A DNA stretch of 64,000 nt from Trichoplax sp. H2 (taxonomy: Eukaryota). The number at the start of each line of letters is the position of its first letter. Position 1 is the stretch's first letter. The position numbers and the translations under genes are program-made. Location: contig NOWV01000171.1 in the NCBI GenBank assembly GCA_003344405.1, positions 53,558 to 117,557 of the forward strand, read 5' to 3'. Below, in pieces: positions 40,325 through 64,000 of this stretch. The notes under the pieces are model-generated. The model saw only the letters and a program-made list of their open reading frames with translations, made no database searches and had not been told where the DNA came from.

Positions 40325-43300
40325 TTAAACATTCCTTTTTAGCCAGTCTTCTGCAACTCTTTCATAACTATTGATCCACGAAATTCTGTTCTTAATACTT
40401 TCAACAGACTGCTTAACAGCGTTAGCACCTGTGCCTACATCAGGATTCTGTCTGAAGAAATCTTCAACCTAGAGAAAGGCATACACAACTTATTAATATA
40501 CAGTATAGTCATCCATGCAATCTTCAGGGTTGTTAAAATACTAGATTCACTCTTGCTTCAATCTTAAACTTGCCTGCTTCAATCTAAATTGTGATGCAAA
40601 CCGTCCAGCAGTATTTCTGATTAAGCTACCAAAGGAAAAGAAACTGCCGCCATACCTTTAACAAAATGTACAAATTTTAGTCATAATTATAAACATTCCC
40701 TTGATTCGAATACTAGTAAACATCATATAATGTATAAGATTTTACGTTTTCCTAATATATGCCCAATTAGCACGAACGAAGTCCCATGCGAGAGGCCTGC
40801 CAACCAAGTTATTGGCAATGTAACCAATAACAACAGTAGAATCTTGGGAACGAACTTTAGCAGGATCAATGGACCACCTTAAGTACCTACAAACAGTTCA
40901 ATAATTTTTTGAATGTTTAGTGTACGAGAATTAAGTTAATTAATCATTGCAATTGGTAAATCCATCATCAGAAGTCACAATGTACCTATTCAGAATCCAC
41001 GGTTCCTTTGAATATGACAAAGCATCTAATATAGTTCGTTTTTCGGAAGCGACATTCGTTTTATAGAAGTAATTATACAGGAAATCCCACTCTGCGATAC
41101 CTCCATTAGCTATACCAAAACGGTATACAACCGCCTTCAAGTTCGGTTTTACGCTAATGTTGAATAGACGATTGATCTCACTATCCCCGCTTTGCAAAAA
41201 GTCACCTTGACTATGCAAGTATTCTGTATTTCCAGGTAAAATTAAATATCAACATTAACTTACGCATTATTTGTGGGGTCCGCCATAAAGCGACGGAAAA
41301 GCAAAGTTGCATTATCTAAACATGGCTTGTATCCAAATCCACAACCAATAGTTAAGGCCGACATGCGCAATAATCTGATTAAATTTGATGGCTTATATCA
41401 ATTATTGAAATTATGGTAATTTTATAATTTTAAGGTAGTAATTAGTATGTTCAGTTTTTTAAAGCTTACTATTAATACATAATTATAGTAAAAGTTAAAA
41501 ATACTCACTTCTGAGTATGACTCCCTTTGTCTTCAAAGCCAATCGTGTCCAATAAAGGCTTTAATTGCTTCAAGTAATATTGCTAAATAATAGGGTATAT
41601 AAATAAAAGCTCATAATAAGCTTATCACATTCATAATGTGAGATTATTTTATTATAGTTGTATAATTAAATATATGTGTCTAAGTATACATATCTGTCAT
41701 TTACACTAACCGAAAAGTAACCGTAGGATGAACGATATGATATGATGGATCCAATAGCGCCAAGTACAGAGTTTGCAGTCCTCCAAGGAACATAGCTTCT
41801 TTCTTTCGTAAGATACTTTGTTGTACCAAAAGCGATGTCGTAACTGAGCTGGCCAACTCTACAAAACGAGAAATTAGCGTAACAAGTTTATACAGGACAA
41901 AACCTTGAGAAGTACTTGGAGACTTCAAGGGTTCATTATAATTATCGATCAGTCCCTTATTACCTTGCAAGATTAAAAGCGTCATCAAGTAGATTGGAGA
42001 AATCTCTTTTTGATAATGCCTGTCACGCATACGGAAAGCAACGATCAGTATTTCATGAATATTTCAATACGTTATAAGCACATATGTCAAACACTATAAA
42101 ATCAATCAACATTTTTTAAATGCACGCCATCATTATTGGAAAAACTTACCGGTTGTGTTTTCTGCATTTCCTGGATGAGGAGATTCCAATTACTTACTGG
42201 ATAGTTAACTCGGTAATAGCCATAAGCATCTTTGTTGGCCTTCAGCCAAGTACCAGCTGGCCAAGCTATATTGAGAGCTATTTAGGAATTTAAAATTACA
42301 TAATTACCAAACTTGTTGTAAAGTACAAAATACTCAAACACAACATTGGATTTTAGATCGCTACAGTACTTGCAAAATACTTTTAATCTATCTAACTATT
42401 TATAATCCACATATGCATGAACGTAGCTTACTGGAACTCATGTTAACCATTGCACTTCGAATTGTGTTCGGCGAATTTCCAAGAATGTATTTAAGCGGGA
42501 TATTCCACTTGTATCTATTAATTTAAAGCAATTAGCCAAGTCTAGCTTTCTGATAAGCTTACGCGGATCAAATTTTATTCATCTTTAATAAATGTAATTA
42601 GAGATACTACTAATAATAAATAAATATTATCATACCCATAGGGTGACCTGAATTTTGAGGTTGCTGGGTCAACCTCGGGATTTTTATTATTGGGATCCAA
42701 CAAGAAACGTTTTTGTGAGAGTCGAGCTTGAGAACCTGTATTCGTGATAGTAACGACAGGAAATCCCATTTGCAGTGTCCAAGTATCCATAACATCAGTA
42801 ACATTTATCCTGTAAGAAATGGCCTTAAATGTTGCCATAATAATTCGATCAATGATGTGCTACGGGCAATTAACTACAGAACTTTATGATAGTGCTTGTA
42901 AATCATTAATATACATATCCGATTAAATTTTACCTCCGATAAAGTTTGCCAAAGATCTCGAGTTACAGCATTCCGATATTCGAATTTTTTTAAGTATCTC
43001 TACATTTAAGAAAAGTAAACGTACGATAAAGAGATAATCTAAAAACTTTTAAGCCATCAATGTGCAATCAGTTTTAGAATATATGTCATACCGAAATGCC
43101 ATTCTTGAAATCCAAATTACCCATCATATCTCTCATCATTCTAATGATCGATGCACCCTACATTATAATTGAAAGATTACTTACTAACTTCTATTACAGT
43201 ACCAACGTTTCAAAAAAATTAAAATATCCACAATTCAAAAATAGGTTTCAAAGAGAACAGACCTTCGCGTAAGAAATTGTGTCGAAAACTTCATTAATTT

Positions 43301-46300
43301 CGTCGGGATGATAAACAGTAACTTGGACAGGATGTGAAGTTACAAATGCATCCAAAGAGAAGGCGCGCTGTACGTCGATAGGTACAAATTGATCGAGCTA
43401 TTCAAACAAAGAGCACAACAATTGTAAATTTTTAGCAATATAAAACTATAGGGAAATCACGTATTATCTATCCACTGTGGTGATCATCATTCTCTAATTA
43501 TTGGGGAAATTTAAAATTATGTATTACCATTTCCCATGTAGGTTGATAATGATCAGTGCCGAGATATTCCATGAAACTAGCAAAGCCTTCGTTAAGCCAA
43601 AGATCATCCCACCACTTCATAGTGACTAAATTACCAAACCACTACATGTTCAAATAGAAATTGAATAACTTAGTTCACAACAAGAGAGTAACGTAGGAGC
43701 TCATATCAATAATTTTTATTAACCATATGAGCCAATTCATGAGCCACTACATAAGCAACACGTTGCTGATTGTTAGCTGCAGAGACATTTGGATCATATA
43801 ATAAAGCAGTTTCGCGATAGAGAATTAAACCCCAATTTTCCATGGCCCCAGCAGCAAAGTCAGGAACTGCTACCATGTCTATTAGTTATTAAGGTGGCGA
43901 TAGGTATCAAGCGATTAGCAAAGCAAGAATAATGAAATGTATCAAACAACAAACTAATTACCGCATTATCAAGCATTACCTTGTTTCGGCAATGGGAAAG
44001 GAATACCGAAAAAATCTTCGAAGTAATCAGTTATATTAACACCACCAATTAAAGCGAAATTGCCCTGATTGATAGTATCGGTAGTTGCCCAAACCCTTAT
44101 CTAGATCCAATTTTAGTAAAATTTAGCTCCGCTGAGAAATTTTTAATTAATTTTAAATTGTATAAACAGGCAACATGAAACATAATGCTGTTTACTATTT
44201 ATGTTAACATACCGGTACTCTGTTTTTGGTCATCATTTCGATGTAAGTAAAATCGGCTAACACAAATGCAAGTAAGTACGAACTCATCCTAACACTGGCT
44301 GTAATAAATTGAAATATCGATCGTTAAGTACAGTTTCTATTTTAACAATAATAAAACAACGTATGCAAAGACTGAAATTTAATTACCAGGCTACATCAAT
44401 GGTCAATGTATCAAGGTGACAATACAACCTGCAAAGTCTTTCTTTGTACTGTACTACGCTAGATATGAAGTATCGTTCACTAAACTTACTGTTGTAGTCA
44501 TATCTTCTAAAACCAGGGCGATTAGGTATTGTAACATTTCTTTGAATTGGCATATTCCATAGAACGCTCGTATAATTTGATTGAGTAATGATTGTTGCTG
44601 TAAAATTGGCCTTCAATTCAGGCTCATCAAAGAGAGGTATAATCTTACGTGCGTCAGTTGGTTGACATTGGCTAGCTGCGATATTTCTAAATTGGAAAAA
44701 ATAACATTGCATAAAATTTTAGAAATGCAACAAATTTACTTCACAATTGTTAGGATTTACAGCAACACATTGACGTAACGATTGCTTCCCCCTCAATTTT
44801 TTTTTTTAATTCCGTCATTTCGATACTCGATTAACAAATTTAAAGTAACCTATCGTGCCGTTCGCATTGGCAACCCTACCCATCAAATACGACATAAGTA
44901 ATTTCTCCTACTTTAAAATAAACTCCATATCTAAAAATGAAGAGCCGCTTGTGCTACAATAATGATCACAACATTTGTTTTGGCACATGGCACTACGACT
45001 GGTGTTGACAACGCTAAACCGTAGTACAGTACAGTATAGTGAATTATTTACAGTACTTTGCGCGATTGTAATTTCGAAACTGGCCAATCAAATTCAGCTT
45101 CCAATTTACGTCACAGAGAGGCTGATTTGATAGATTGTTGTTCCGTCGAGGACACGTTTCATGTGGTCATGTAACCAGCATTCAGTGCGCACTTTTTAGA
45201 GCTCCAGTAGTAGGGTAAAAGGATTACAGCACGGTAGGAAAAGGATTACAGGCACTGTACGTACAGTACAATCATGGACTACTACAGTACAGTACTATAT
45301 GTACAAAAAACACTGTAGACTGTAGTCCATGGTACTGTACTGTGCCAGAGACTTCTCCGATAGGGCAATACGGTACAGTGGAAAACTCTCTTTAAAATGA
45401 GAGTCTGCTGAATCAGCCGCCAGAGTCAATTAGCCATTTAATTAATAATGACTTGGAACCATCACTGAACGGACGGCAAAATCAAAATAATACAGTACTG
45501 TAAAATCTCCAATCTATTTATCTACTGTACAGCAGCTAAAGGTGTGGCCCAAAGTAACGCACATTGGGGGACGCTAGAAATTTTTCCTTTTACCTTGATG
45601 GCTTGATGCCCGTTGATGGAAAGGAAGACTAAAACTTTTGATTTACCGCACCGTATTTGCACGGTATAGTAGTATATGGTTTACGTATCTAAACATAGCA
45701 GAGCCCAGTATTGCTCTGAGACATGATACGTCTGTGTCCAGTCTGTGACTGATTTAGTTGGACACTTACAGCACAGCATGTTGAACGTCATTGTCGAAAG
45801 CGAATATGCGTAAGTAAATAATTACCTTGTCGCATAAGCACACAACGTTGTTGTAATTAGGTGAACAGTTTCTGTACAATGCTTACGATGTGCAATTTAC
45901 TTTTACTTACATTACACGGCCATCCAATTTTGTGTAAGTACTTTTATACAAGCCGTTCAACGCAGTAGATAATGCTGCCCTAAAATTAAATCGGACGTAA
46001 TAGATTCCAGGATTAAGCGGGCTAGCCAGCACAATGTAGTAATAATCATTTAGCGCAAAAGCATTATGTTCGGATATCGTTAACGGGTTGCCAAAATTAC
46101 GTGTAGACGAAACCACTGGGGAACCTACTAATGTCATTTGCTTCATATGAACAATAATGATATTCGTTTGTGAAGTAACGGAGATTTCGATATCATTTTG
46201 GCCAGTAAACTGCAAGCCAATCATATCTACATCCAAAGAAAACCAGTACTGAATTGGAACAATATTTTTGGGAAGCCGAATGTTATTGACCGCCGGATAT

Positions 46301-46593
46301 CTCGATGTCGGTTTAGGTGCGGTAGGTTTGACTGTAGCAACAGTTCGAGTTGTGGTAGAACCTGAACTTTGAGTCATGCCAGGTCTTGTGGTCATCGATG
46401 GCCGCGTTGTAGCCATAGTTGCCTGGGTACCGCCAGATCCTTGTGCACTTCCTCTAGGAACAACACCAGCCATAATGCCAACCAATACGATCAAACCGAT
46501 AGCAACAGCAACTGCAATGATTAGATGACACTTGCTACAGTAGTAACCATTTGGTTTCTTTTCTCGCACTTCAAAATCCGTTCCTTTTTCCAT
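40325..46593 (-). CDS. Aminopeptidase N-like M1 zinc metallopeptidase (APN-A), a type II membrane protein. Exon 1 is 45911-46593 and encodes the cytoplasmic tail, the TM segment ([21 protein letters not shown]), a Ser/Thr-rich stalk and the start of the N-domain. Exon 2 begins at about 44706 (..[29 protein letters not shown]). The catalytic exon near 43560-43860 carries [53 protein letters not shown]. The 42575-42838 region carries [20 protein letters not shown]. The 40940-41218 region carries [13 protein letters not shown]...EPWILNRY. The stop is at 40325-40327 (...[17 protein letters not shown]).
   Basis: The intact GAMEN exopeptidase motif and the HEXXH-(18)-E zinc-binding motif are present. 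There is strong colinearity with vertebrate ANPEP (QPTDAR..FPCFDEP; [12 protein letters not shown]; EEWDFAWEQF...LWILNRYL). Canonical splice sites are used; exon 1 ends ..GRV-AT|gtaagt. Confidence 0.85.
45030..45345. repeat. (TGTAC)n tracts plus an inverted repeat (catggactactacagtac...gtagactgtagtccatgg) inside intron 1 of APN-A.
   Basis: Seen directly at 45030-45060 and 45255-45345. Confidence 0.75.
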
Positions 46594-47194
46594 CTTGTTT
46601 ATTTAATGTGTTATAGTAAATAGAACTTCCTACAACTGCAATCGTCACAAACTGTCGAAACACAGAAGCAGAAATAACTGCGAGGAGTACGAACTGTGAG
46701 TTGGCAGGAGAAAAAATAAAAAATAAAAAAAAAACAATCAAGACAGGCTAACTCAGTTCCGTTAACTGATCAGAAAAACGCTCTCCTGCCAATGATGATT
46801 AAGGGACAGGAGTAGCCAATAAAATAGCATGACCAGCCAACTATCGTGTTACCCAGCACGATACAGTTACCGTGCAGTATTGGTCCATCTGATACTAGCC
46901 AGTGGTTACTGACATGTGACATAGCACACTGTCTAGTGTACACTGCTGTGCGCGGTTGGCTACTATGGTATAGTCACACAGTACAGTATAATTGGTCGCC
47001 GTCCTTTGATTAAACGATTAATAATAAAAAAATTAATTAGCACTGCCCGTTTAACAAACATCAAATTATCATAATAATAGAGCTTTATTTGATCTGACTC
47101 ACTTAATAAAAGCTGATGGCAGAACCAGCCAGAACTATGGTATACTTTCTGCCAAGTTTCTATTAACGTTGATGTTGGGCGGAGCCTAATGGCG

Positions 47195-50100
47195 TACAGT
47201 ACAGTGCACTGTACGGCACTGTTAAAAGTACTGTACAGTACAGTATTTACAGTATTAGCGTTTCAAACATTTCGATGTACAGTACAGTACAGTACAGTAC
47301 AGTACTGTACACTGTACCGTACGTACTGTAGTTACCGTACTGTACATACTGTAGAGATCAAGATAAGGTAAATACACGACAGTAAAACGGTATCATGATG
47401 ACCGTACCACGAAATTGTTACTGACTATCAGTAAGTTTTTGCTCCCTATTTATGTACTGTACAAGGAAAGGAATTGACCACAAAATTTATAAATTAACTC
47501 ATCTTATTTTATTATTTTATGTAAGACCACTTGTAACCAGTATCATGGCTTTATTGTATGTTCACAGCTTAAATCCCTTCCAAGCTTTCTTTTCTTTCTA
47601 CTCAAGTAGTGTCACGTATCGCATGATTGACTGGTTTTGGCTAGTTATTATGCACGTGTTAATAAAACCGATAGGCAGAACAACCGAACAAAAGCGCTCG
47701 ATTTTTCTTTCAATTTTTTATTTATTTATCATCGTCTGCTATATTCGTGCTGTATTTAAATATCAGTTTTATAATGTACTTTATAACTACTGTATATTTA
47801 ATTACAATACAGCTGTTATATTAACTATCAATACAATAAATAGGAAATGTTATAGCAGTCAATAAAGTTTCATAGTTGCAGATAAAAAAAGAGCTGAATA
47901 TATTCACGGTGCTGTTGCATTTCCGCTTTACAATATATTCAAATTGACACAATGTGAGTTTTACATTATTGTAGGCCTATCTGAAATTAAAGTTTTCCAA
48001 GCAGCTCCTATTTTAACCACGATACAATTCGAAGAGGCACATTTGTCAAAACCGTCCATAATGCTCACCTGGAAAAGAGGATCCAGAATACCATAAACAG
48101 ACATTGATCTAGGCGAACTTTCGCTGAAACTCACATTGTAAAACAATACTAATAAATAGATATCTATAGAATAGATAAGTAAATCGATAGTTGGAATAAC
48201 GAAGAATAGGATGCCAAACGTTAGCATTTACTGCTGCATGCCCTCAAGGAGTTTTAGTAATTCTATTCATACTCTGTGCCATCATAGCGCTATAATTGAA
48301 AATCATTTTGCAAATATTGTATGCCAGTTCACCCCTTATTTACTGAGAAAATCGATAAACTGACGACACTGGGTCTAGTCCCTTATCCATCACCACAGGG
48401 CATTAGTTGTCTAATTTTCAATACTCGTGCATATAATTTGACTTATTAAAGATCTTCTCAAGCTTATCCCAATTTACAGTAATGTATGACAGTATTCAGA
48501 GTTATACAGTACAGAGTATCATATTCCCTAAACGGTTAATTAAACGGACTTTAACATAGCATAACTAATTCGTACACTATGCTGTACAGTGTACAGTATA
48601 TATTATCTACTGTATAGTACTATACTGTACTGTACTGTACATCAATCATCAGTCCTCTTTGGGAATAGCCTTTACGAGGAGTTTTCTCAGTGGGGTTCAA
48701 GAGTTAGCATTATTATTATTGCATTTGGTGTAACAGCTGTTGTTTTTACAGTCCATCACATCAACGTCATTAACCCTCTTCAGATCAAAACTACATGTTT
48801 TTACTGTATTGCATGATCATTAATTATGTGACAAGTTTGAACCACATCATCTACTTCTTTAGTCTGGCATCTGTAGATCCATAGGCTCAGCGAAGTGGTA
48901 GACAAGAGTTAGGAGATAGTTGTACAGCCTTTGTTGAAAGCGCGTAAGGCTTATGTAACTCCACAACAATCGTACAGTCAGGTATGCGATACGCGGTTAT
49001 AATACAGACGCGCGATACAGGTTTATACCAAATAATCCAATGGTAACAACATTAAGCCATGCATACATTACTGTACAGGGATGTGCAATTGTGCATAGTA
49101 TGATCTACAGCATCCATAAGATCTCTTTATCCGCAACGCTGCGTGATTGATTGTTTTCCAGATTCATGTCTGTGTCATGTACATTAGTACAGTACAGTGG
49201 AATGACCAGAAAAATGATAAGCCTCCATGCTTTTTTGCACTGAAAAGTGGTACTGCTGTACTCGTCTTGTACACTGCACAGAGATCGCGAAAGTGCCTCA
49301 CTTCTGAGTAACCGATATCGGACGAGTTAGCGCTCTAGGTTTTTTTCGTTTATCTGTATGGCTTACATCATCAAGTTACGGCAAAGGTGACGTCCACTGT
49401 ACTGTACTCTAACTGTACATATATATAGGTTAGATTTGTATGATATACAGAAACAACATACAAGCCTGAGCTGATATGCATTTTTCATGGTATTTTTCAG
49501 ATACATTCACTCACTTTTCTACTACATGGTATCAGTTCCGCTAATACTGCTGCAGTACTGACAAAAGTTAAATTAAAAGTAAATTAAAATAATAATAATC
49601 GCATATTTGAATAAAGAAGAATAATAAAGATATCAGTTTTGAGGCTAATACTTGATTCGAATCTCTGATAGTGATACTGTACTTTCGATCAATCAATGAT
49701 TTCTTATTGTTAATTGCGATACTGATAGAGTACAGTACTGTACAATCAGGGACTATTAAACGAACGAGATGGGGCAGGAAACGGTTGTTCGGTATGTTCG
49801 CTATACTAATAAATCAATAATGTGGAGGCTGATTATTCAATTGGTCATTTCAATTGTATCGCATATCTGTAAACGGTACACTATACTGTATGCGATTGGC
49901 GTCAAAAATTAGCTGCTATTATCCTACTACCTTGCTGTAAGTTGGTTTTATGCAGTATGGTATACAGTTTCAATGTTTCATCGGTAGCATATAGTACAAC
50001 GACCGAAAAAATGATAAGCCCTCCAAATTAGTTTACTTTACGCTATGGTCGTTTCCTGTTCCGTTTCTTTCTTTTTCTTTCTTTAGTCATTCGGACTACT

Positions 50101-50245
50101 ACAGTAGATATACTGTACAGTACTGTACTATGCAGTGTACTGTACAGTACTGTACAGCATACAGTGTACCGTACGATTGTCATCATTGAGTAACCACGGT
50201 ATATCGACTTCTATTGTACAGTGTACACTGTACAGTACATTATTT
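47195..50245. repeat. Divergent intergenic region between APN-A and APN-B containing at least six separate (TGTAC)n microsatellite blocks (47195-47350, 48490-48650, about 49190-49215, 49395-49415, 49725-49750, 50095-50245).
   Basis: Seen directly, for example 'gtacagtacagtacagtacagtactgtacactgtaccgtacgtactgtag' and 'gtacagtactgtactatgcagtgtactgtacagtactgtacagcatacagtgtaccgtacg'. Confidence 0.8.
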
Positions 50246-51562
50246 TGACGCTTAACCAATCAAAATCTATCTTTTGAGAAAACGCATCACGTGCAAAATC
50301 CAAACAAATTATATTATTTAATGTCATATTATTATATATTACCTATATATATTATATTGTCATATGTCACGATATATATGTCACCGTGACATATACTGTA
50401 TATTATACAGCGAGTATAACAGCACGATAATTAAGGGTTAAGAAGGCGTAATCATATAAATATTGTATACCTTTCGCTAAATACAGTACTGTACTGGCAC
50501 ATAGGATTGGCTACTAGGCCCAGTCATTCCTCTGTGATGTATCCAAAAATGCTGCTAAAATGGCGTTATATCTTCGTTATACTTGTCCGAGCAAATTTAC
50601 CATATTTTAACGATATTAACGAAGATCTAAAACGATGTTCGGCGCAGAATATCTCTAGCTAAATATGTCAGGTGCACGCCCGTGCACTCCGAAAATCTTG
50701 GTTAATGACTTTGTTAACACTTAAATTAACTAATCAATTATTCACAGAATCGCAGCCTAAAAAAATCTGGTTGAACTATCGACGATAAGTTCTTGTAACT
50801 CTACTACTGCTTCTATTGTTATATTGTCAAGCGGTGGTTAGTTTCTTATCATAAAATATTGCCCAACATTGTCAGTAAAAGAAAAAACAAATTAGTTTTA
50901 AATTAAATTTATATTGATAATAACAATGTACCCAGATAAATAGGCCTGACCAATGACAGTATTATCAAAACAATGGTTACTATTGTTGCTTCCGTCTATT
51001 CGAACTTTCCAATTCTAATTGCCTTCGGGCAAATATGGTTAAATGAATTCGACGGCAGAATACATTGATAGACTGACAATGATACAATGCTGGACTTTGC
51101 AATGAGTATATGGCGTCCGAAAATAAAGGATACAATCAATGCAAACTCAAATAAGCTTAACATTGAAAAGCTACTTCTTTGTTCATTTAATATACTGTAC
51201 TGTATATATAATGGCGTTCATCAACGACGACGGCTTTGCTCTTATTATATATTATTTATCCAGCAATAATTACAATACTTTTGATCGTCCCCTACTTCAA
51301 GAAGATTAGCCACCTGAATATTACTTCAATATCACAACATTTGCATCCTTCTTCCTTTCTATCTATTTGATAGGGTTAACGATTCAGGAAATTATGTTGT
51401 AACTGTTGCTATCCAGTCTAATAATAATATACGCTGGTAAAGTGGAAAGCAAATCCTATACAATATATTAGGACAATCTTGGACATTTTTTTCCATCCGT
51501 GGATGGGAAACTAATGATATTGATTCTTCCAGAAATAGTCATCGCAGAACGAAAGACTGAAG

Positions 51563-54500
51563 ATGATTGAGAAAGATCGACAACAATCAGAGAAAACTGA
51601 CATTAGCAAGGAGGACAAAATTATTATTATCAAGCGGTTGCCTTGCAGCAATACTCGATGGCTTTTAGCGATAACAATCGTAGTCCTTTTAATTGCTATA
51701 ATTGGCTTGGTTGTCGGACTAATACCGAGGTCCAGTTCTCAATCTCAAGTTGGTACACAAATTGTTACAACAGTTTCAAGTATTAAATCCACCATACAAA
51801 CACAATCATCACCGTCTAAAATTACGTTTCCTACAACATTACCAATTAACACCAGAAAACCTACCGATGACTACAATACAATTCCATCTACTCCCGACCG
51901 TGTTAGCACTCATGCTCCCATTACAAATCCAATTCCAACTTCCAAGTATCCTGCTATGAACAATTCCCGTTTACCGAAACAAATTATACCTGTTCAGTAT
52001 TGGTTTCAACTCGAGATTAACGTTAAAAATTTAAACTTTTCCGGTTATAACATTATCGAATTAAACGTTACATCACCCACGAAATTAATAATTGTTCATG
52101 CTAAGCAGCTAACAATGACTGCAGTTCCTCAAGTATCTAATACTCGTGTTGCGACGGCTAATACAATCTATTATCCCGTCAAAGAACACGGCTACTACTT
52201 TCCCAATCAATATTATTATGTGGCATTGAAAGATTCTCTGAATGTTGGCATTTACTATATTAAATATCAATTTCAAGCACCTTTAAGTCGTGATTTTCGG
52301 GGATTATACGCGTATCATTACACAAGACAATCTGATCAACGTAAAATGTAAGTATGCCTACTAAGTTTTTTCCTAGCTAAGTTATGAACCGTACTAGCAG
52401 TATTTAATATCCCCACTAATCAGAAATTTTAGACTTTTATGAATTTTGTAATCAAGCGCCACAATTGTTTTAAAATATTTGTACTAAAATATTCACTAAA
52501 CATCTAAAATTTCAACCACCCAACCGCTTATACTTTAGTTTTGTGTTGCTATGCGTTAGAATCAGTCGAAAAAAATCTGAAATCTAATAGGTCAATTGAT
52601 ACAGTTATGAAAACCGTATCTGACATTGGGTATCATAAGGGTATGAAAGATTAGCCTTGAATGCATACGCGCATTTAATATGTATTTAATATGCATATAT
52701 TCTGTAAACAATGTCTTAACTACAATTCAGATTGAAATCCTTAATCAAATAAACAATAGATTGCCTCATTAACTTTTGTTAATCTGATAATTTAACGCCT
52801 AAATCGGTCATATCATTAATGATTTTACGTAATTTAATGGCTTAATGGAGGCCTTCTGCAATAGATTCTGATAAAATAATAAAACTGAATATACGTACGT
52901 ATACCCGTAAATACATTTAGCTTCTCAACTTTGTTATAACTTACTTTTTTTCATTTCTACTTTCCATAAATCATTTTTGTAATACGTTCTATTTCTGTGC
53001 GATTTTTAGTCTTCCTATTGATATTTATGTCCTCTGCCAATGTCAAACACCTTCCAATTAAGCTATTATGACCTTAATAATATGTATGCCTTCACTAATG
53101 ATGTTTATTCTAGATGGGCAGTAGCAAGTCAATCTCAACCTAATTATGCCCGAAGAATAATTCCTTGCTTTGATGAACCATCCTTTCCGGCTGTCTTCGT
53201 TGTGAGTGTAATCGTATCGATGGACTATAGTGCAATATCAAATACTGAAATCCTAGATATACAGCCTTACAGCGTGAACAAGATTCGCATTAGATTTGAT
53301 CGTAAGTCAATCGGCGTAAAGTTGTTAAAATTAACAATGTAACAATAATAATTATTACACTCAAATAGCGCCATCAATCATGATAATATCCCCTTATTAT
53401 ATAGGGATTAAAGCTTCAGTAATTTTTTTCTCGAAAATGTTTAATCATAAGCGATGAAGATTATTCTAACATAATTACCTTACAATATAAATCACAGTTG
53501 GATACCTTTATCACATATTCATCTTAGAATAAAAGCCAATTATAGTTTATCTATTCAATCTTGGCTACCATTAACCTTGACCTTCCAATTTTGTATATGT
53601 TGTTTTGGACGAAGCTGTACTGAACAATATTAATGAATTATTTATTACATCAGCTACTCATCGTATGCCAAGTTACTTTCTAAGTATCATTGTTCATAAT
53701 TTCCGCCGGATTCAACAAAAAACCAGGGCCGGATCCTCGGTATGTTACAATAAATTTTAGTTTTAATTATTATGAAATAACTATGAAACTTATTATCATT
53801 ATAATTATCATTCAAACCCTGTCCTCAGATTCGTATTTGGGCTAGAAGAGCAATCTACCAAGACGGGCAAAATGCTTTGACTGCAGCCGTAAATATAACG
53901 AATTATTTCGAAAAAATACTAGCTATTAACTCTCCCTCAAATAAACAAGGTAAGAAAATAATACTGATTTTAAGAATTATTACTTTAGATAAATTGAAAT
54001 AATTGGTTCTCAGGATTGTGCTGATAGAACTATGGATATGCAGATGTATTATGAATAGCTTGCGCTTTTACTTTTGAGTAACGCGTACACTTGTAAAAAT
54101 AAATCAAACTGACGATACGTTGAACATTTCATTAGATCATGTGGCACTTCCTACATTTACTGCAGATACCACCGCAAATTGGGGAGTCCTAATTTATCGG
54201 GAGGATTTTTTACTTGATAACAATTCCTACTCTTCGTCAAAACAGCAGCAACGAATTGCAGTTACTGTTGCCTATCAAATTGCGCAAATGGTAATATATA
54301 TTACACCGAAAATAATTGTTTCAAATTGTGAAATTGACATTCGGCAATCTATTTTCATATTAGTTTCAGTTTCTTTGTTTGACATTTACAGATTATTTAC
54401 AATATTCCTCTTAATTAATAAAAAAAATATTATGAGTGTAGCCACCTTACCAGACTAAAGAGTTTTAACGATGTTAAACTATATTTACAGTGGTTTGGAA

Positions 54501-57500
54501 GCTTACTAACAATTCGTAAATGGAACGATTTATGGCTTCCAGAATCACTCAGTTGCTTCTTCGAAATAGTTGGAGCAGCATATTACCAGCCTACATTCCA
54601 ACTAGTAAGTATAGAAATCATAACCTACAATGTATGCTGTATTTCATAATTCTCACATAACATTACTTCAAAGCCATATCATGGAATCGATTATACTCAA
54701 AGAATATGTTTATTGTAACCTATGGTTTATCAAATGACGGTTTACAATAGCAGAAATACCGAATTAAAGTGTTAAACTTTATTTACAATATTTTGGTGGG
54801 ATCTATCCCTTCGTATATCACAGCATATAATAAATTTGTTACTATAAATTATCTGATGATGTTGCTTTGGGATCTAATTATGCTTAATCTTGCAGATGGG
54901 TCAATTCATTGTCGATCATGTTCAGTTAGCTCAGAGAACAGAAGGAGTGCTTAATTCTTACCCCTTAGTATCGGCAACGGAGCATTCCCTGACGTTTTCG
55001 GATCCTATTTATTGCCATAAGGTATCATATTTTTTAAGCAATTAAAATAAAGTTATTTCAGAACATAAACAAATTTAATTAATTTAATTTAAATAGTTTG
55101 AACAATATCGTAAAAGTTTTGATTTAATATATCATGAAGAATGATACTATAATTTTTAGATTTACGTATAACTCTGCATTTTTTATTATTAGCTGTCTAC
55201 TTATGTTAATCGTAATCCATGTTTGTTATTAGGGAGCTGCACTATTTCGTATGTTGCAAAATTACATAGGCGATACCAATTACCTACTTGGAATTACGGT
55301 TGTTACATTATTCTATAGATCAAGTTTGATATAATCTCTTTAATTTTACAAGTTATCATGAGCCAAATTATGCGATCTTCTAGATCAACCATTCTAGTAA
55401 AGATTTGACAACTCATGTGACGTAAAGTAAATTATGGTATGACTTTCTTATAGGATTACTTGAAGTATCACGCATATCGATTCGCGAATGCTGCTTCCTT
55501 ATTTAATGCATTGACTAAGGTGAGTAAATATATTGGTACGAGACATGAACGCTTGCGTATAGTCTCGATAACCGTTGTTGCGAACGCTTTACTATTAAAG
55601 TATATTAGATATAGAAGCCAATATAGGCTGTTCGGAGCTATTTATGACTCTCCTGAATTTAAGATTTCAGCTTATCGATGCAATATAACTGTCGCTCATA
55701 TTGAGATTAAGAATTACATAAAGATCTAGATTACTATACATTACAGTACCGTATTTCACACACTTTAGCTAGAAAACGATTAGTTAAGATAATGATGTGC
55801 ATGTAAGTAGTACGGTAATATATACGAATTCCAGCATAGGCAAAACAGCTCAGTGACAAATAATCGTGCTGTATTAATAGCACCAGTATGATGTTGCTAT
55901 AATTTCATTATGTGTGGTTAAGTAACTAAACTGTCATTCCTGATTGAATAATGTTAAGGGTAAGGCTTATCTTAATACATCTATGTCCAATTCCCTTAGG
56001 CAACTAAGCACCAAAAAAATGTAGCTAATTTCATGCACCCCTGGATAACTCAAAGAGGCTATCCCATAGTTATAGTCCAGCGAGATCCACAAAATATTGA
56101 CGGCGCCGTTTTAACTCAGCTTCCATTTACTTCGCCAGTTTGGTCTAAAAACAGGTATTTTCAAATTTAATCAGATTATCCGTTTTCTGTAATCATGTTA
56201 TATAATTGAATATAATTGAATACAAACATAACCAAATTTTAATACTTTAAATTAAGGCAAAGCTAAAGTCTACATTTAAAGATAACTATTTCATTCATAC
56301 TACATTCTTTCAATTGCTCACATTAAAGTATTTTAATAATGCATTTTAGTGATGGATGGCACATTCCCTTCACTTGGTATTATGGAAGCTCTCCCAATAA
56401 TATCTATCAAAAAGTAATTAACAGGACCTCAGGTATCATGATCTAATTATTATATCAATCTACTTTTAATTAAATATATACTGGCAATGTCCTATAGTCC
56501 AAGTACATCTATTTATAATATAGACTTTTATTATAGCTACTAAATAAAAATAAAATTTTAGTAGTATCACATACAAGCATGGCTATTACCTAAAACCTTG
56601 GTACAATTATAGCTTTTATAACACATTATCTGATTTTATTCCAGCAACTACTAAGATTTCTTGGCCCAGAAATACATGGATTAAAGCAAATTTTAATCAG
56701 TATGGATACTATCGCGTAAATTATCCGCTATCAAATTGGCACGCTATTTCATCTGCTCTTCAGTCTAATCCTCATGTAAGATAAAAAATCGAAGTTACAT
56801 AACAAGTTACGATCTTGTTAAAATTTTATCGATCTATTTACGAAGTTAACTCTGATTTTTATAACAGCAAATGACGAAATTAGATATCTCCAGTTTAATG
56901 GATGATGCTTTTGAGCTTGCCAGGTAAGATAATCTATTATTTCGCTAACCAAGAAGTTTAGTGAGTGCTATTAATTACTTCTCTAGAAAATACTTACTGG
57001 ACTGTTTAAATAGTCACATAGTATATTGTAAAGTATGGTCAGTAAATTAAACCAATATCAATTTTCCTAATTTTGATCAGATATAATTATTTCACTAAGA
57101 GAATAGCTAAGTTACAAATTATCACGTTATTTTTATTGGTAGATAAGATACGACTTGACTGATACTGATAAATGAGGTGTAAGAAAGTACAACATAACGT
57201 TTCAGAATTAAAAATTAAACCATCTTTAATTATTTTTAGTTTGCGAAATTTAAGCTACTCAATTCCGCTTAATATGACCAAATATTTAAAACAAGAAACT
57301 ACTTATTTGCCTTGGAAAACAGCCAATGTACATATGATGAATATCATGCAAGCATTTCTACTTCGACCATCGTACAATGCGTTTAAGGTAATTCTTCAAT
57401 TAAAACGTGTTTCATATGCTAGTATCCTATTTAATATTTACGCCATTGGTATAGTTTAAAGTGTCATAACTAGTGCTTTCTCATTAAGTCTTTAGCTGAG

Positions 57501-59701
57501 TTTTAAATGATCATCAAGACTTGATAGCTATCGTATACTATTGCACGTCTAAGAATCATTTATCATTGAATGTACATTTTCTTTTTATTCTAGAACTATT
57601 ATACGAAAATTTTAACACCCGTGATCACCGTGGTTGGTTATCAAGATACAGGACATCATAACCATAAGTAACTAGCTCGCTTAATTATTTAATATCTTGA
57701 TTTTATTTTTAACTAACAATGACTCAGTTGGTCTTAACTGATAATAGTAATAGAAATATTTTTGCTATAATAATGACATTTATGAATTCGGATGATAGAT
57801 TACTCCGATCTCTCGTCGTTAATTCAGCCTGTTTACTTGGCAATCAATCCTGCATTAATTATGCTTTAACAATGTTCAGAAATTATATGAATAATCCTGC
57901 AAACACAGCGTAAGAGTTAATTTCTACGAGATACAACCTTTGTAGTAATGATTAAATTATTGCGCAATAGATATTTATTTAGTGTATAGAGTTATTTCAT
58001 GCCTCAAATAATCTTCTCTAGAATTCCAGCAAATCTGCGATCGGTGGTATTCCGTTATGGTATTCGATATGGTGGAGATGCAGAATGGAATTTTCTCTAT
58101 AACCATTTCAAACATGCTTCAAATCTGAATGATAAAATTAGAATGATGCGTGCGCTATCATTTTCAACCCAGAAAGCTAATCTTCAAAGGTAAGAAGCGA
58201 TTCTCCCCTATTGTTACTATATCAGCAACTGTTGTGATAAAATAAAACACCTGAAGATGTAAAGTACAGTAGAGAGACTTTATAGTTTTTGCATAGCTAC
58301 TGTATATATTATTATCAATAAGTAATGTACAAACAAGAACTAGGGTGCTTTTCTGATATGTACATTTGTGACTTTTTACGAGATTCTGAGGGTAACGTTG
58401 AGACTAACATTTTTTTCCTAAATACTGCAATATTAAGATAAGACTGAATCTCAGAAGTATAGTGTATGGTTAAATTACTGTAAGCTAATATTGCCGTGTG
58501 GATTATATCCAGTCTCTAAATTTACATTAATTAATTTTGGAGGGCTTTATACACTAATCATATAATTAAAAATTACAAAAGCTTCAATTTATTTAATTAA
58601 CACCCAATTAATATAAAATAGACGTTGTAAAATTGTTTATACACAGATGACGTAAATATATCAACTATATTTACGGTATTTAAATAAATACTATTGCAAT
58701 ACCTTATTTCATGAATGGCTACCTTTTAGTTAACATGTACGGTAGTATTCAAAAATACAGAAAGTTTGACAGAGCAAACAAAATTGTACTAAACTGTAAA
58801 GTAACACACTCGGAAAAAATTTACATTAATGTAATTAAAGGCGATTACAGTATGTCGAAGATATGACATAAGCTGAAGACGAGCGAAAATATTTTTACGC
58901 TAGCATTCAGTTCATTATATTACGGACGTAAATAGGCCTGTATGTAAAGAAATTTAAATTCATATATGGAGTAAATCAGTTTAGCTGTAAGAAATTTAGG
59001 CTATTCGATATTATCGCTTAGCCATTTATCTATTATTAATAATATAATTTGATATGCGACAGTAATGCGTATATATTCGCACATTATTTTTATCTTAGGT
59101 ACCTGAACGATTCTATCGCAGATACACTGAATCCATCATACACACTAACAATACTTGACTGGGTAGCTCAGCAAGATATTGGAAGGAGCATAGCTTGGAA
59201 TTTCGTACGGGCTAATAAAAAATATTTTATGAACAGGTTAAACGGGAAAACAGTTCTCATATGATAATCTTTACGTTGGAGGATATGCAGTAATTTTCGG
59301 TTATCGTTCTCATTAATAGTAATTGCTAAATGACAATCTTTTTAGATTTGGTACCGTAAGGGTCCCAACAGCGTCTATTTCTAAGCACTTTAATACTCAA
59401 TTTTTATTCAATCAGGTCGGTAATAAATGCTTTAGAAATGGAAAGCGAATCTTTTAATTTCATCACAACATATCGATTTCTAATTGTAGTAGTACCATGT
59501 AGTCAAGTTGATGTAGTATTGATCTTGCACTCTTTCATATTGAAGGTACAACAATTTATGACAGCTAACCCCGACAAAAAGGTTAATGAATTTCCACTTC
59601 CTAAGAAACAAACGATTCTTTTTAAGGTGCAAAAGAATATTGACTGGCTTCAGCACCACGAGACAACTTTGCAAAAGTGGTTCAATGATAACCTCAAATA
59701 G
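51563..59701 (+). CDS. Aminopeptidase N-like paralogue (APN-B) with degenerate catalytic motifs, a predicted pseudo-enzyme. Exon 1 is 51563-52347 (cytoplasmic tail, TM segment LLAITIVVLLIAIIGLVVGLI, Ser/Thr-rich stalk, ...SKYPAMNNSRLPKQIIPVQYWFQLEI...). Exon 2 is near 53085-53290 (..SQSQPNYARRIIPCFDEPSFPAVF). The catalytic-region exons lie at 54120-54300 and 54480-54600 (ALPTFTADTTANWGVLIYRE ... VAYQIAQMWFGSLLTIRKWNDLWLPESLSCFFEIVGAAYYQPTFQL). Further exons lie near 55460-55510, 55985-56150 (MHPWITQRGYPIVIV), 56640-56780, 57720-57910, 58000-58190 (GGDAEWNFLYNHF) and 59050-59260. The terminal exon ends ...TLQKWFNDNLK* at 59701.
   Basis: The same domain order and the same exon-1 boundary as APN-A (both end ...-AT|gtaagt after a Lys/Arg-Met), so this is a paralogue. 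At the two catalytic signatures APN-B reads DTTAN for GAMEN and YQIAQ for HELAH (both zinc-ligand His and the catalytic Glu are lost), and WLPESLS for WLNEGFA. Confidence 0.8.
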
Positions 59702-62700: not shown

Positions 62701-64000
62701 TATTTAAACATGAGAATAGGTTCAAATTGTGCTACATTGAAGCGATCAACACCCTTCGGGCAATCTAGTTACCAATGTATAAATCCTGCATTAACAAAAC
62801 AGGAATCCCGTAGTAATCTTTATTTACACTCCTATAGGTCTAATTTAATCTTCTAGGAAAATATAGGATTTGTTTTTCTTCAGGTGTTGGCAATTGTTTT
62901 CTCTGCCAAAGTCATTTTGCTAAGTGAATTATTTAAAATTCGGCTTTGAAATGAGATCATTTTACTCTAATCTCGGTCCAGTGATTAATAACGGCCGACT
63001 ACTAGTTTTTATTTAACAATAGATCGAAAGGAATAACTGCTTTGAGAATTGCGCTCAATAAACTCTTAAACTAATGACCCTAAATTTTCACAAATAATAA
63101 TGATCAAAGCAATGATTCGTAAGCTTTGTCTATAAAAATTGTAACAGTATCAGCATTGTAACATAGGATTTTCCTAGACTTGATTTATTTATTTACTAGT
63201 AGGTGAAATTTTTTCGAGATTTGCTTGCCACCATCATCTCTGAGATCTATATTTCCTACTTTTAAACTGTTGAGTACAGCGTGAGCTTCTGTGGAATACT
63301 TTTCGTTCGAAAGTATATTGTAAGTTAATTCGTAACTATTCTTCTGATTCTTTGTTTTGTTAAAAGTAAGATAACGGATACTCTAATATGATCGGCAACA
63401 ATTAATAGATATTGTTTATGCCACTTAATAATTATTGCGAAAGAGAATACTAAGATATGAATCCTGTTCGAGGAATTGATAGTCGAACTGTATTAATAAT
63501 TGCGCGATAGTAGAGTGTTTTTAGTACAATTAGAACAATTTTGTTGGTGATGATGAGAAAATTCATCGCTTTGGCAAATGACGACAAGATCAACTTACCG
63601 TTCGAGAACGCTAATTATACATTAATTAATAATCACTTGTATAAAGGACTACATTACGTTGGTAAGTGATTAGCATTACTATAGTCGGCGAAAACTTTAG
63701 ATTGCAATGTTGTGGCTGTGAAACATATGACGACTATTTCAACAAAGACATATGCTGTATTTCATTAACATTGTTTACATGGGTATCATTGCACATATCA
63801 TTAATAATTTTAGAGAAAAATCTTGAGCACTATTGTCAACGACCATAATTGCAAGCTACAATGTGCAGAGTAATCCCATTATTCTAACTTAAGCGTTATT
63901 TTAATTGGCTACTTTTAATTTACTTTATACAACAATAACTTGGATCGTTATTGGAGGATAACTCTATATTTGTAAATGATCCACTTCGCTTTGTATTTTT

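What the first reader, a model, noticed from the sequence alone, without database searches (positions are those of the whole stretch)
51563..59701. APN-B is an M1 aminopeptidase paralogue that has lost its zinc-binding and exopeptidase motifs, a likely membrane-anchored pseudo-peptidase
APN-A (40325-46593, minus strand) retains [23 protein letters not shown] and WLNEGFA. The neighbouring paralogue APN-B keeps the type-II topology, the Ser/Thr stalk, the N-domain and the C-terminal ERAP1-like region. It reads FTADTTANWG / VAYQIAQMWFGSLLT / WLPESLS at the homologous positions, which removes both zinc-ligand His residues, the catalytic Glu of HEXXH and the Glu of GAMEN. APN-A and APN-B share every domain in the same order and the same exon-1 boundary, so the catalytic motifs look specifically replaced rather than the gene having decayed. 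That pattern fits neofunctionalisation, for example as a receptor, a peptide-binding decoy or a regulator, rather than a dead gene.
Basis: partly seen in the sequence, partly recalled or inferred. Interest (0 to 1): 0.75.

Follow-up and report, generated by a model that had tools for sequence, protein, structure and literature searches.

The report
Conserved catalytically dead placozoan aminopeptidase
One gene in a cluster of aminopeptidase-N-type genes in the placozoan Trichoplax has lost the residues needed to bind zinc and cut peptides, yet selection has kept it intact across distant placozoan lineages, so it is a working pseudo-enzyme of a kind already known in other animals.

Summary
The window is Trichoplax sp. 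H2 DNA. APN-B (51563-59701, + strand) is an intact 20-exon, 998-aa gene, and my model is identical to GenBank RDD38553.1, which is annotated "Glutamyl aminopeptidase". It has all three Pfam M1 domains, and its predicted four-domain fold superposes on APA and ERAP1 (TM 0.91-0.94). It reads DTTAN for GAMEN and YQIAQ for HEXXH. The third zinc-ligand Glu is kept. APN-A (46593-40325, - strand) shares all 19 intron positions and keeps every motif.

The new evidence is a genomic contig from a much more divergent placozoan. It carries exons 1-14 of the orthologue, open, with the same exon sizes and a dead site (DATSN, HQIAQ, Cys). dN/dS is about 0.13 overall and 0.07 in the ex-catalytic domain, the same constraint as on an active neighbouring paralogue. 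APN-B is therefore an anciently inactivated pseudo-peptidase kept by selection, not a decaying gene.

Expression, lack of activity and the actual function were not tested. M1 non-peptidase homologues are already known (C. elegans MNP-1, yeast Tma108), so this is a new member of a known kind and a correction to an annotation. Interest is moderate to low.

The parts
51563..59701 (+). APN-B gene (start codon to stop codon): 20 exons, 998 aa, type II membrane M1 pseudo-peptidase. Identical to RDD38553.1 and orthologous to TRIADDRAFT_52305.
51563..52347 (+). APN-B exon 1: cytoplasmic tail, TM segment (51659-51724), Ser/Thr/Pro stalk (51725-51952) and start of the N-domain
53114..53301 (+). APN-B exon 2 (contains QPNYAR, 53136-53153, in place of the EPTDAR-type motif)
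53654..53739 (+). APN-B exon 3
53829..53949 (+). APN-B exon 4
54136..54290 (+). APN-B exon 5: DTTAN (54165-54179) in place of GAMEN, and YQIAQ (54273-54287) in place of HEXXH
54491..54604 (+). APN-B exon 6: WFGSLLT...WLPESLS, with the retained third zinc-ligand Glu463 (54542-54544)
54896..55021 (+). APN-B exon 7: PIYCHK, where Cys523 (55013-55015) sits at the position of the catalytic Tyr
55233..55298 (+). APN-B exon 8 (66 nt, GAALFRML...; weak donor gttgtt). Missing from the T. adhaerens reference model, present in the H2 model, conserved in the divergent placozoan.
55454..55519 (+). APN-B exon 9
56000..56154 (+). APN-B exon 10
56350..56432 (+). APN-B exon 11
56645..56775 (+). APN-B exon 12
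56868..56923 (+). APN-B exon 13
57240..57387 (+). APN-B exon 14
57594..57667 (+). APN-B exon 15
57799..57909 (+). APN-B exon 16
58022..58189 (+). APN-B exon 17
59099..59236 (+). APN-B exon 18
59346..59415 (+). APN-B exon 19
59546..59701 (+). APN-B exon 20, including the stop codon
40325..46593 (-). APN-A, the catalytically intact paralogue, head-to-head with APN-B (start codons 4969 bp apart). 20 exons, 981 aa, same 19 intron positions. Keeps GAMEN, HELAH, the WLNEG Glu and the Tyr.

Best explanation
APN-B is a catalytically dead member of the M1 (aminopeptidase N/A-like) family. It is a single-pass type II membrane glycoprotein with a mucin-like stalk, and its ectodomain keeps the complete four-domain M1 fold. 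It arose by duplication within a placozoan cluster of at least three APN-type genes.

Its active site was destroyed before the deep split between Trichoplax and a divergent placozoan lineage. The general-base Glu became Gln, the second His became Gln, the transition-state Tyr became Cys, and GAMEN degenerated. In Trichoplax the first His later became Tyr.

After an early burst of change concentrated in the catalytic domain, the whole ectodomain, including the ex-catalytic domain, has been under purifying selection as strong as on an active neighbouring paralogue. The protein therefore does something that does not need hydrolysis.

The most likely mode of action is binding without turnover. It could bind a peptide or protein ligand in the retained M1 groove or cavity, as a cell-surface receptor or decoy. 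It could also pair with and modulate the active APN paralogues, since vertebrate M1 ectoenzymes are dimers.

Shown here: homology, gene structure, loss of catalytic residues, predicted fold retention, age of the loss, and selection. Inferred: membrane topology, absence of activity, and the binding function.
For: - Gene structure: the 20-exon ORF is intact with canonical splice sites and is identical to an independent MAKER model that was given transcript evidence.
- Family: all three Pfam M1 domains are present. Peptidase_M1 scores 137.8 bits against 285.7 for APN-A. The best solved relative is human APA, 4kx7, at 1.5e-123 over residues 132-995.
- Fold: the AF2 model has pLDDT 82 and pTM 0.82, with a TM helix at 32-52 and a disordered stalk at 53-128. 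Foldseek gives target-normalised TM 0.91-0.94 and rmsd 2.6 A to APA and ERAP1.
- Catalytic positions: GAMEN reads DTTAN, HEXXH reads YQIAQ, and Tyr is Cys, at positions invariant in 34 of 34 outgroups.
- Orthologue in a divergent placozoan (L002): exons 1-14 are open, all introns are GT-AG, exon sizes are the same, and the site reads DATSN, HQIAQ and Cys.
- Selection against L002: dN 0.19, dS 1.44, omega 0.13. The ex-catalytic domain gives 0.065. The raw ratio pN/pS is 0.26.
- Control: the active paralogue APN-C gives omega 0.135, against 0.142 for APN-B, over the same exon-1 N-domain segment in the same pair of lineages.
- H2 against the reference (H1): 7 nonsynonymous differences where 24 are expected at the intron rate (P = 4e-5), and no exonic indels.
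- Replacement residues: 21 of 31 lost-consensus positions carry the same replacement in both orthologues.
- Domain pattern: loss of conservation is specific to the catalytic domain.
- Alternative exons: none restores the motifs.
Against: - There is no gene-specific expression evidence. No transcript-derived fragments turned up in the protein collections and no paper mentions the gene.
- No biochemical data exist.
- dS against the divergent lineage is close to saturation (pS 0.64), so omega values are approximate.
- Only exons 1-14 of the distant orthologue were recovered, and its species is unknown.
- The H1-H2 nonsynonymous-to-synonymous ratio alone (7:4) is not significantly below the neutral expectation (binomial P = 0.20).
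- The proposed binding function is inferred from precedent, not from data on this protein.
- The very strong constraint on the ex-catalytic domain, the retained Glu463, the His still present in the divergent lineage and a conserved Cys at the Tyr position leave a little room for an altered chemistry.
Confidence: 0.82

Rival explanations
1. APN-B is an ordinary decaying pseudogene that has not yet acquired stops or frameshifts.
For: Catalytic residues are lost. APN-B keeps only 59 of 93 family-conserved columns. The H1-H2 pN/pS of 0.49 is higher than the 0.07 of APN-A.
Against: The 2997-nt ORF is open in a genome with 32% G+C, and all 19 splice sites are intact. The orthologue is open across 14 exons in a lineage whose synonymous sites are nearly saturated, with omega about 0.13. 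That is the same constraint as on an active paralogue. Nonsynonymous change is far below the intron rate, and there are no exonic indels.
Confidence: 0.02
2. APN-B is still an enzyme that uses a remodelled site, for example a metal or nucleophile site built from Glu463, Cys523 and His/Tyr440. It would then be a neo-enzyme and not a pseudo-enzyme.
For: The third ligand Glu463 is retained. Cys523 is conserved in both placozoan lineages at the former Tyr position. His440 is still present in the divergent lineage. The ex-catalytic domain has the lowest omega of all domains, 0.065.
Against: The general-base Glu is Gln and the second His is Gln in both lineages, and the first ligand position varies (Tyr or His). 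The positions that anchor the substrate alpha-amino group drift between the orthologues: GAMEN Glu is Ala or Ser, and Q270 is Gln or His. From general knowledge of M1 enzymes, not tested here, single substitutions of these residues abolish activity.
Confidence: 0.06
3. The dead motifs are an artefact of the gene model, and the real transcript uses another exon or is a chimera.
For: The T. adhaerens reference model does differ from mine: 976 aa, without exon 8.
Against: tblastn with APN-A exons 5-7 finds only one significant match each for exons 5 and 6 in the locus (E 8e-13 and 1.6e-11). The exon-7 match at the expected place is weak (E 3.3) and everything else is noise. The H2 annotation equals my model exactly. 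The divergent orthologue has the same exons with the same degenerate motifs.
Confidence: 0.02

Closest known systems
C. elegans MNP-1 (matrix non-peptidase homologue 1), an M1-family non-peptidase
   Same: [quoted passage not shown] It acts at the cell surface or matrix in cell migration, interacts with the receptor CAM-1/Ror, and regulates DAF-16 signalling (PMC4418752, PMC10368266, as read). It shows that a dead M1 ectodomain can have an essential non-catalytic role.
   Different: MNP-1 is 781 aa and bilaterian, and it was not compared with APN-B here. The nearest relatives of APN-B are the active placozoan paralogues (38-44% identity, against 34% or less to any other full-length protein in a 1.84-billion-protein scan). 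That points to an independent, placozoan-specific loss. APN-B keeps the third ligand Glu.
Active type II M1 ectoenzymes: aminopeptidase A (ENPEP, PDB 4kx7), aminopeptidase N, IRAP, and ERAP1/2
   Same: Same domain order, same predicted fold (TM 0.91-0.94, rmsd 2.6 A), and the type II topology with a stalk seen in APA, APN and IRAP.
   Different: The zinc ligands H and H, the general-base Glu, the GAMEN Glu and the catalytic Tyr are all replaced. The database name "Glutamyl aminopeptidase" is therefore misleading.
Yeast Tma108, an M1 homologue with a proposed non-enzymatic role
   Same: It is an M1 fold that is reported to use its substrate-binding pocket to hold a polypeptide N-terminus without obvious turnover (review PMC11266112). 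That is the binding-without-cleaving mode proposed here.
   Different: [quoted passage not shown] APN-B is a membrane ectodomain with a thoroughly dismantled site.
Drosophila Gone early (Goe), a type II membrane non-peptidase homologue of the M13 neprilysins
   Same: It is a type II membrane zinc-metallopeptidase homologue that lacks zinc-binding consensus residues and acts at the cell surface in cell-cell communication (PMC4242634).
   Different: It belongs to a different peptidase family (M13, not M1) and a different phylum, so it is an analogy and not homology.

Membership tests
Peptidase family M1 (homology) | Peptidase_M1_N, Peptidase_M1 and ERAP1_C domains in this order, each above Pfam's gathering score | tested here: met
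   PF17900 112 bits, PF01433 137.8 bits, PF11838 230.7 bits. Full-length alignment to APA at 1.5e-123.
Peptidase family M1 (active enzyme) | HEXXH-X18-E zinc-binding and general-base motif | tested here: not met
   The sequence reads Y440-Q-I-A-Q444 ... E463. Only the distal Glu survives. These positions are H, E and H in 34 of 34 outgroups.
Peptidase family M1 (active enzyme) | GXMEN exopeptidase motif that anchors the substrate alpha-amino group | tested here: not met
   D404-T-T-A-N408. G, A, M and E are each 34 of 34 in outgroups.
Peptidase family M1 (active enzyme) | Transition-state-stabilising Tyr upstream of the K-G pair | tested here: not met
   It aligns to Cys523 in both MAFFT and HMMER alignments, with Tyr522 as the neighbour. 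It is also Cys in the divergent orthologue.
Peptidase family M1 (active enzyme) | Zinc content and aminopeptidase activity | not testable with these tools
   Needs recombinant protein.
Functional pseudo-enzyme (as opposed to pseudogene) | Intact ORF and splice sites maintained under purifying selection in independent lineages | tested here: met
   Intact in H2, in the H1 reference and in L002. omega 0.13 (raw pN/pS 0.26). Nonsynonymous differences 7 against 24 expected at the intron rate.
Functional pseudo-enzyme (as opposed to pseudogene) | Transcribed and translated | not tested
   Support is indirect only: the model is identical to a MAKER gene model built with RNA-seq evidence. No transcript-derived fragments were found.
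Type II single-pass membrane protein | One N-terminal uncleaved hydrophobic anchor preceded by a basic cytoplasmic tail, with an extracellular C-terminal domain | tested here: met
   This is a prediction only. Residues 36-54 have Kyte-Doolittle 3.2, against 1.66 for the next-best segment. The tail has 8 Lys/Arg. The AF2 model has a helix at 32-52. There are 10 N-X-S/T sequons after the anchor.
Orthologue of C. elegans MNP-1 | Closer to MNP-1 than to active M1 paralogues | not tested
The closest full-length relatives of APN-B are the placozoan paralogues A and C, which makes an independent origin the likelier reading.

The most novel reading that the evidence does not exclude
APN-B is an ancient, placozoan-specific cell-surface peptide-binding protein derived from an aminopeptidase. 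It could be a non-degrading receptor, co-receptor or decoy, or a heterodimeric brake on the neighbouring active APNs. In that role it would shape the lifetime or perception of secreted regulatory peptides in an animal that coordinates behaviour through peptide-secreting cells and has no neurons. A still more exotic variant is a remodelled Glu/Cys/His site with a new chemistry.
Probability: 0.15. Interest if true: 0.65.

Novelty: new member of a known kind. Interest (0 to 1): 0.33.

Why it matters
It corrects an annotation. The protein is filed as "Glutamyl aminopeptidase" or "Aminopeptidase" in both Trichoplax genomes, but it cannot be a canonical M1 enzyme. Counts of placozoan peptidases and inferences about peptide inactivation should exclude it.

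It also adds a well-supported case of a membrane M1 pseudo-peptidase that was inactivated long ago and then kept under strong constraint in an early-branching animal. It appears to have arisen independently of nematode MNP-1. That makes it a tractable candidate for asking what dead ecto-peptidases do: ligand binding, decoy, or regulation of active paralogues.

It does not open a new category, because non-peptidase homologues are common in peptidase families. Several unrelated M1 units with degenerate HEXXH also appeared among the nearest database relatives.

Tried and rejected
- The word-indexed protein search missed APN-A, APN-C and the divergent orthologue. A second, catalytic-region query for transcript-derived or orthologous fragments found nothing useful. 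I therefore have no expression evidence, and exons 15-20 of the distant orthologue were not recovered.
- Contig L005, which carries the APN-C orthologue, does not reach back to the 3' end of APN-B.
- The H1-H2 nonsynonymous-to-synonymous ratio alone has too little power (7:4, binomial P = 0.20; Fisher test against APN-A P = 0.28). I used the intron divergence and the distant orthologue instead.
- Pairwise identities over about 305 residues (A-B 42.8%, A-C 48.2%, B-C 44.3%) do not resolve which active paralogue is sister to APN-B. I did not build a tree.
- Literature searches by gene and protein identifiers gave nothing. The placozoan cell-atlas paper does not mention aminopeptidases in its main text. 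Two primary MNP-1 papers are not held.
- tRNA, Rfam and tandem-repeat scans of the window found nothing relevant.
- I first noted the catalytic Tyr as retained, then corrected this after the alignments placed it opposite Cys523.
Full report
**Source of the window and gene identity**

The window has about 32% G+C. A protein search with a rough concatenation of the APN-B reading-frame segments returned TRIADDRAFT_52305 of Trichoplax adhaerens (P0001, 976 aa) as the only close hit. The reference locus (L001, GCA_000150275.1, DS985241.1) aligns to the window at 97.8-99.7% identity across four blocks; the 15.2-kb block that contains APN-B is 99.2% identical. P0001's 90% cluster also holds RDD38553.1, "Glutamyl aminopeptidase [Trichoplax sp. 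H2]", 998 aa. It is identical, residue for residue, to the protein I spliced from the window. The window is therefore Trichoplax sp. H2 and the gene is already annotated, under an active-enzyme name.

**Gene structure**

- APN-B (51563-59701, + strand) has 20 exons. All 19 introns are GT-AG. The 2997-nt ORF has no stop or frameshift.
- APN-A (46593-40325, - strand) also has 20 exons and encodes 981 aa. It has 18 GT-AG introns and one GC-AG intron, whose donor CAG|GCAAGT is the same in the reference genome.
- The two genes share every intron position and phase. Twelve of 20 exons have identical lengths.
- They are head-to-head, with start codons 4969 bp apart, and are 37.7% identical in protein sequence.
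- A tblastn scan of the whole window with a typical M1 protein finds only these two M1 genes.
- In the reference genome a third paralogue starts about 4.4 kb downstream of APN-B, just past the end of the window. It keeps SGAMENWG and HELAHM. I call it APN-C.

**Family and fold**

Both proteins match Peptidase_M1_N, Peptidase_M1 and ERAP1_C. The catalytic-domain score of APN-B is half that of APN-A (137.8 against 285.7 bits). APN-B aligns over residues 132-995 to human aminopeptidase A (4kx7, 1.5e-123).

An AlphaFold2 model built on a 35-sequence alignment has mean pLDDT 82 and pTM 0.82. It shows a helix at 32-52, a disordered segment at 53-128 and a confidently folded ectodomain. Foldseek places it on APA, ERAP1/2, IRAP and APN with target-normalised TM 0.91-0.94 and rmsd 2.6 A.

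Hydropathy shows one strong N-terminal anchor at residues 36-54. It is preceded by a tail with 8 Lys/Arg and followed by a stalk that is 51% Ser/Thr/Pro, and there are 10 N-glycosylation sequons after the anchor. This fits type II topology, though it is only a prediction.

**Catalytic residues**

I aligned APN-A, APN-B and 34 outgroup M1 proteins. At positions invariant in all 34 outgroups:

| M1 feature | APN-B | APN-A |
|---|---|---|
| GAMEN | D404-T-T-A-N408 | kept |
| HEXXH | Y440-Q-I-A-Q444 | kept |
| Transition-state Tyr | Cys523 (Tyr522 adjacent) | kept |
| Third zinc-ligand Glu | Glu463, kept | kept |

The HMMER alignment to APA agrees on the Tyr-to-Cys change.

The loss of conservation is not confined to the motifs. 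Of 93 columns conserved in at least 85% of outgroups, APN-B keeps 59 and APN-A keeps 85, and most of the losses lie in the catalytic domain. Mean identity to 12 outgroups, by domain:

| Domain | APN-A | APN-B |
|---|---|---|
| N-domain | 30% | 28% |
| Catalytic domain | 48% | 31% |
| Domain III | 30% | 27% |
| Domain IV | 28% | 22% |

The extra constraint that catalysis places on the catalytic domain has gone, while the scaffold has not decayed.

No alternative exon in the locus could restore GAMEN or HEXXH. APN-A exons 5 and 6 each give one significant tblastn hit, the APN-A exon 7 hit at the expected place is weak (E 3.3), and all other hits are noise.

**Dead gene or maintained gene: H2 against the reference (H1)**

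- All exons align without gaps. The 20 gap columns in the 15 kb compared are all non-coding.
- APN-B has 7 nonsynonymous and 4 synonymous differences (pN/pS 0.49). APN-A has 1 and 4 (0.07).
- The 7:4 ratio alone is not significantly below the neutral expectation (P = 0.20).
- APN-B introns differ at 1.03% and exons at 0.37%. Seven nonsynonymous changes compare with 24 expected at the intron rate (Poisson P = 4e-5).

**Dead gene or maintained gene: a divergent placozoan**

The exhaustive representatives search with P0001 returned P0148, a 275-aa ORF that is 65% identical to exon 1. It lies on Logan contigs from SRR30664517, SRR30664516 and SRR30660616.

The 6.5-kb contig L002 carries exons 1-14 of an orthologue.
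- The N-terminus MIEKDRQQ is identical.
- All 14 exons are open and bounded by canonical AG/GT splice sites.
- Exons 2-14 have exactly the H2 lengths, including the 66-nt exon 8.
- Ectodomain identity is 74.4%.
- Its site reads DATSN, HQIAQ and WLSES, with Cys at the Tyr position.

The general-base Glu-to-Gln, second His-to-Gln and Tyr-to-Cys changes therefore predate the split. The first His-to-Tyr change is specific to Trichoplax.

Nei-Gojobori estimates give dN 0.189, dS 1.44 and omega 0.13. By region, omega is 0.10 for the ectodomain, 0.065 for the ex-catalytic domain and 0.33 for the tail and stalk. dS is close to saturation, but even the raw pN/pS is only 0.26.

As a control I used the exon-1 N-domain segment of the active paralogue APN-C, compared between T. 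adhaerens and a contig from one of the same sequencing runs (L008). It gives omega 0.135 and 73.8% identity. The same segment of APN-B gives 0.142 and 72.2%.

Of 31 positions where APN-B departs from the family consensus, 21 carry the same replacement in both orthologues. The positions that used to bind the substrate amino group (GAMEN Glu now Ala or Ser; Q270 now Gln or His) and the first His (now Tyr or His) still drift.

This pattern fits ancient inactivation, an early burst of change in the catalytic domain, and then renewed purifying selection on a non-catalytic function.

**How it most likely works**

The data show a membrane-anchored M1 ectodomain that cannot carry out canonical zinc-dependent hydrolysis but is conserved as tightly as an active paralogue, most tightly around the former active-site helices (QIAQMWFGSL, ESLSCFFEIVGAAY, PIYCHKGAA).

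I infer that it binds a peptide or protein partner without cleaving it, as a receptor or decoy. Alternatively it may associate with and modulate APN-A or APN-C. Neither was tested.

The small residual alternative is a remodelled catalytic site using Glu463, Cys523 and His/Tyr440, which I put at about 6%. The decaying-pseudogene and gene-model-artefact readings are effectively excluded.

**Comparison with known systems**

M1 non-peptidase homologues are established.
- C. elegans MNP-1 lacks three of four zinc-binding residues. It acts in cell migration and in DAF-16 signalling (PMC4418752, PMC10368266).
- Yeast Tma108 is reviewed as an M1 homologue that appears to use its substrate pocket non-enzymatically (PMC11266112).
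- Drosophila Goe is an analogous type II membrane non-peptidase of family M13 (PMC4242634).

Among the 150 nearest database relatives, several unrelated M1 units also have degenerate HEXXH (P0055, P0064, P0066, P0149).

APN-B's closest full-length relatives are the active placozoan paralogues, at 38-44% identity. Apart from the P0148 orthologue fragment, nothing in the scan of 1.84 billion representatives exceeds 34%. That points to an independent placozoan origin. No paper mentions the gene by any identifier.

**Verdict**

This is a new member of a known kind and a correction to an annotation. Interest is moderate to low. Expression and the actual function remain open.

Noticed in passing
window 55233-55298 (APN-B exon 8); P0001: The T. 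adhaerens reference model TRIADDRAFT_52305 (976 aa) omits this in-frame 66-nt exon (GAALFRMLQNYIGDTNYLLGIT), which has a weak donor (ACG|gttgtt). The exon is intact in the reference DNA, is included in the H2 model, and is conserved with a better donor (gtgaat) in the divergent placozoan contig L002:4566-4631. The reference model is probably wrong here.
   Followed up: yes
L001 22591-28141, starting about 150 bp beyond the window end at 64000: A third type II APN paralogue (APN-C; called product 991 aa) lies downstream of APN-B on the same strand. It keeps SGAMENWG and HELAHM. The locus is therefore a cluster of at least three APN genes, of which only the middle one is dead.
   Followed up: partly
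window 41841-41910 (APN-A intron 13 / exon 14 boundary): This 70-bp stretch is absent from the T. adhaerens reference. Its absence removes the acceptor and the first 18 nt of APN-A exon 14, and the reference APN-A model is only 893 aa. This may be a real deletion in that strain or an assembly error. The reference also has N-gaps where the window has 45420-45715 and 47460-48806.
   Followed up: partly
window 40573-40572 (donor of APN-A intron 19, - strand): APN-A intron 19 appears to use a GC-AG splice (CAG|GCAAGT). The sequence is identical in the reference genome. The homologous APN-B intron is GT-AG.
   Followed up: partly
L007 (ENA ERZ27263980 k141_919483, 9908 bp): A metagenome contig from a divergent placozoan carries a further M1 paralogue with intact GAMEN and HELAH, about 35-45% identical to APN-A and APN-B. 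Placozoan DNA is therefore present in public metagenome assemblies and could supply more orthologues.
   Followed up: no
P0055, P0064, P0066, P0149 (representatives search): Very long proteins of 1.8-2.7 kb made of several fused M1 units contain individual units with degenerate HEXXH (for example SYGIAHQ, HKLTNM, HQLALQ, YKMASQ). P0149, a shorter 804-aa protein, also has a degenerate unit (HKLVNQ). Their source organisms are unknown. Dead M1 units seem to arise repeatedly.
   Followed up: no
window 46594-51562: The 5-kb divergent intergenic region between the APN-A and APN-B start codons has no called gene in the reference. It contains only short low-complexity repeats (GTACA x7 at 47277-47311; TACAG-rich repeats at 50100-50165). 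No tRNA or Rfam family was found anywhere in the window.
   Followed up: partly
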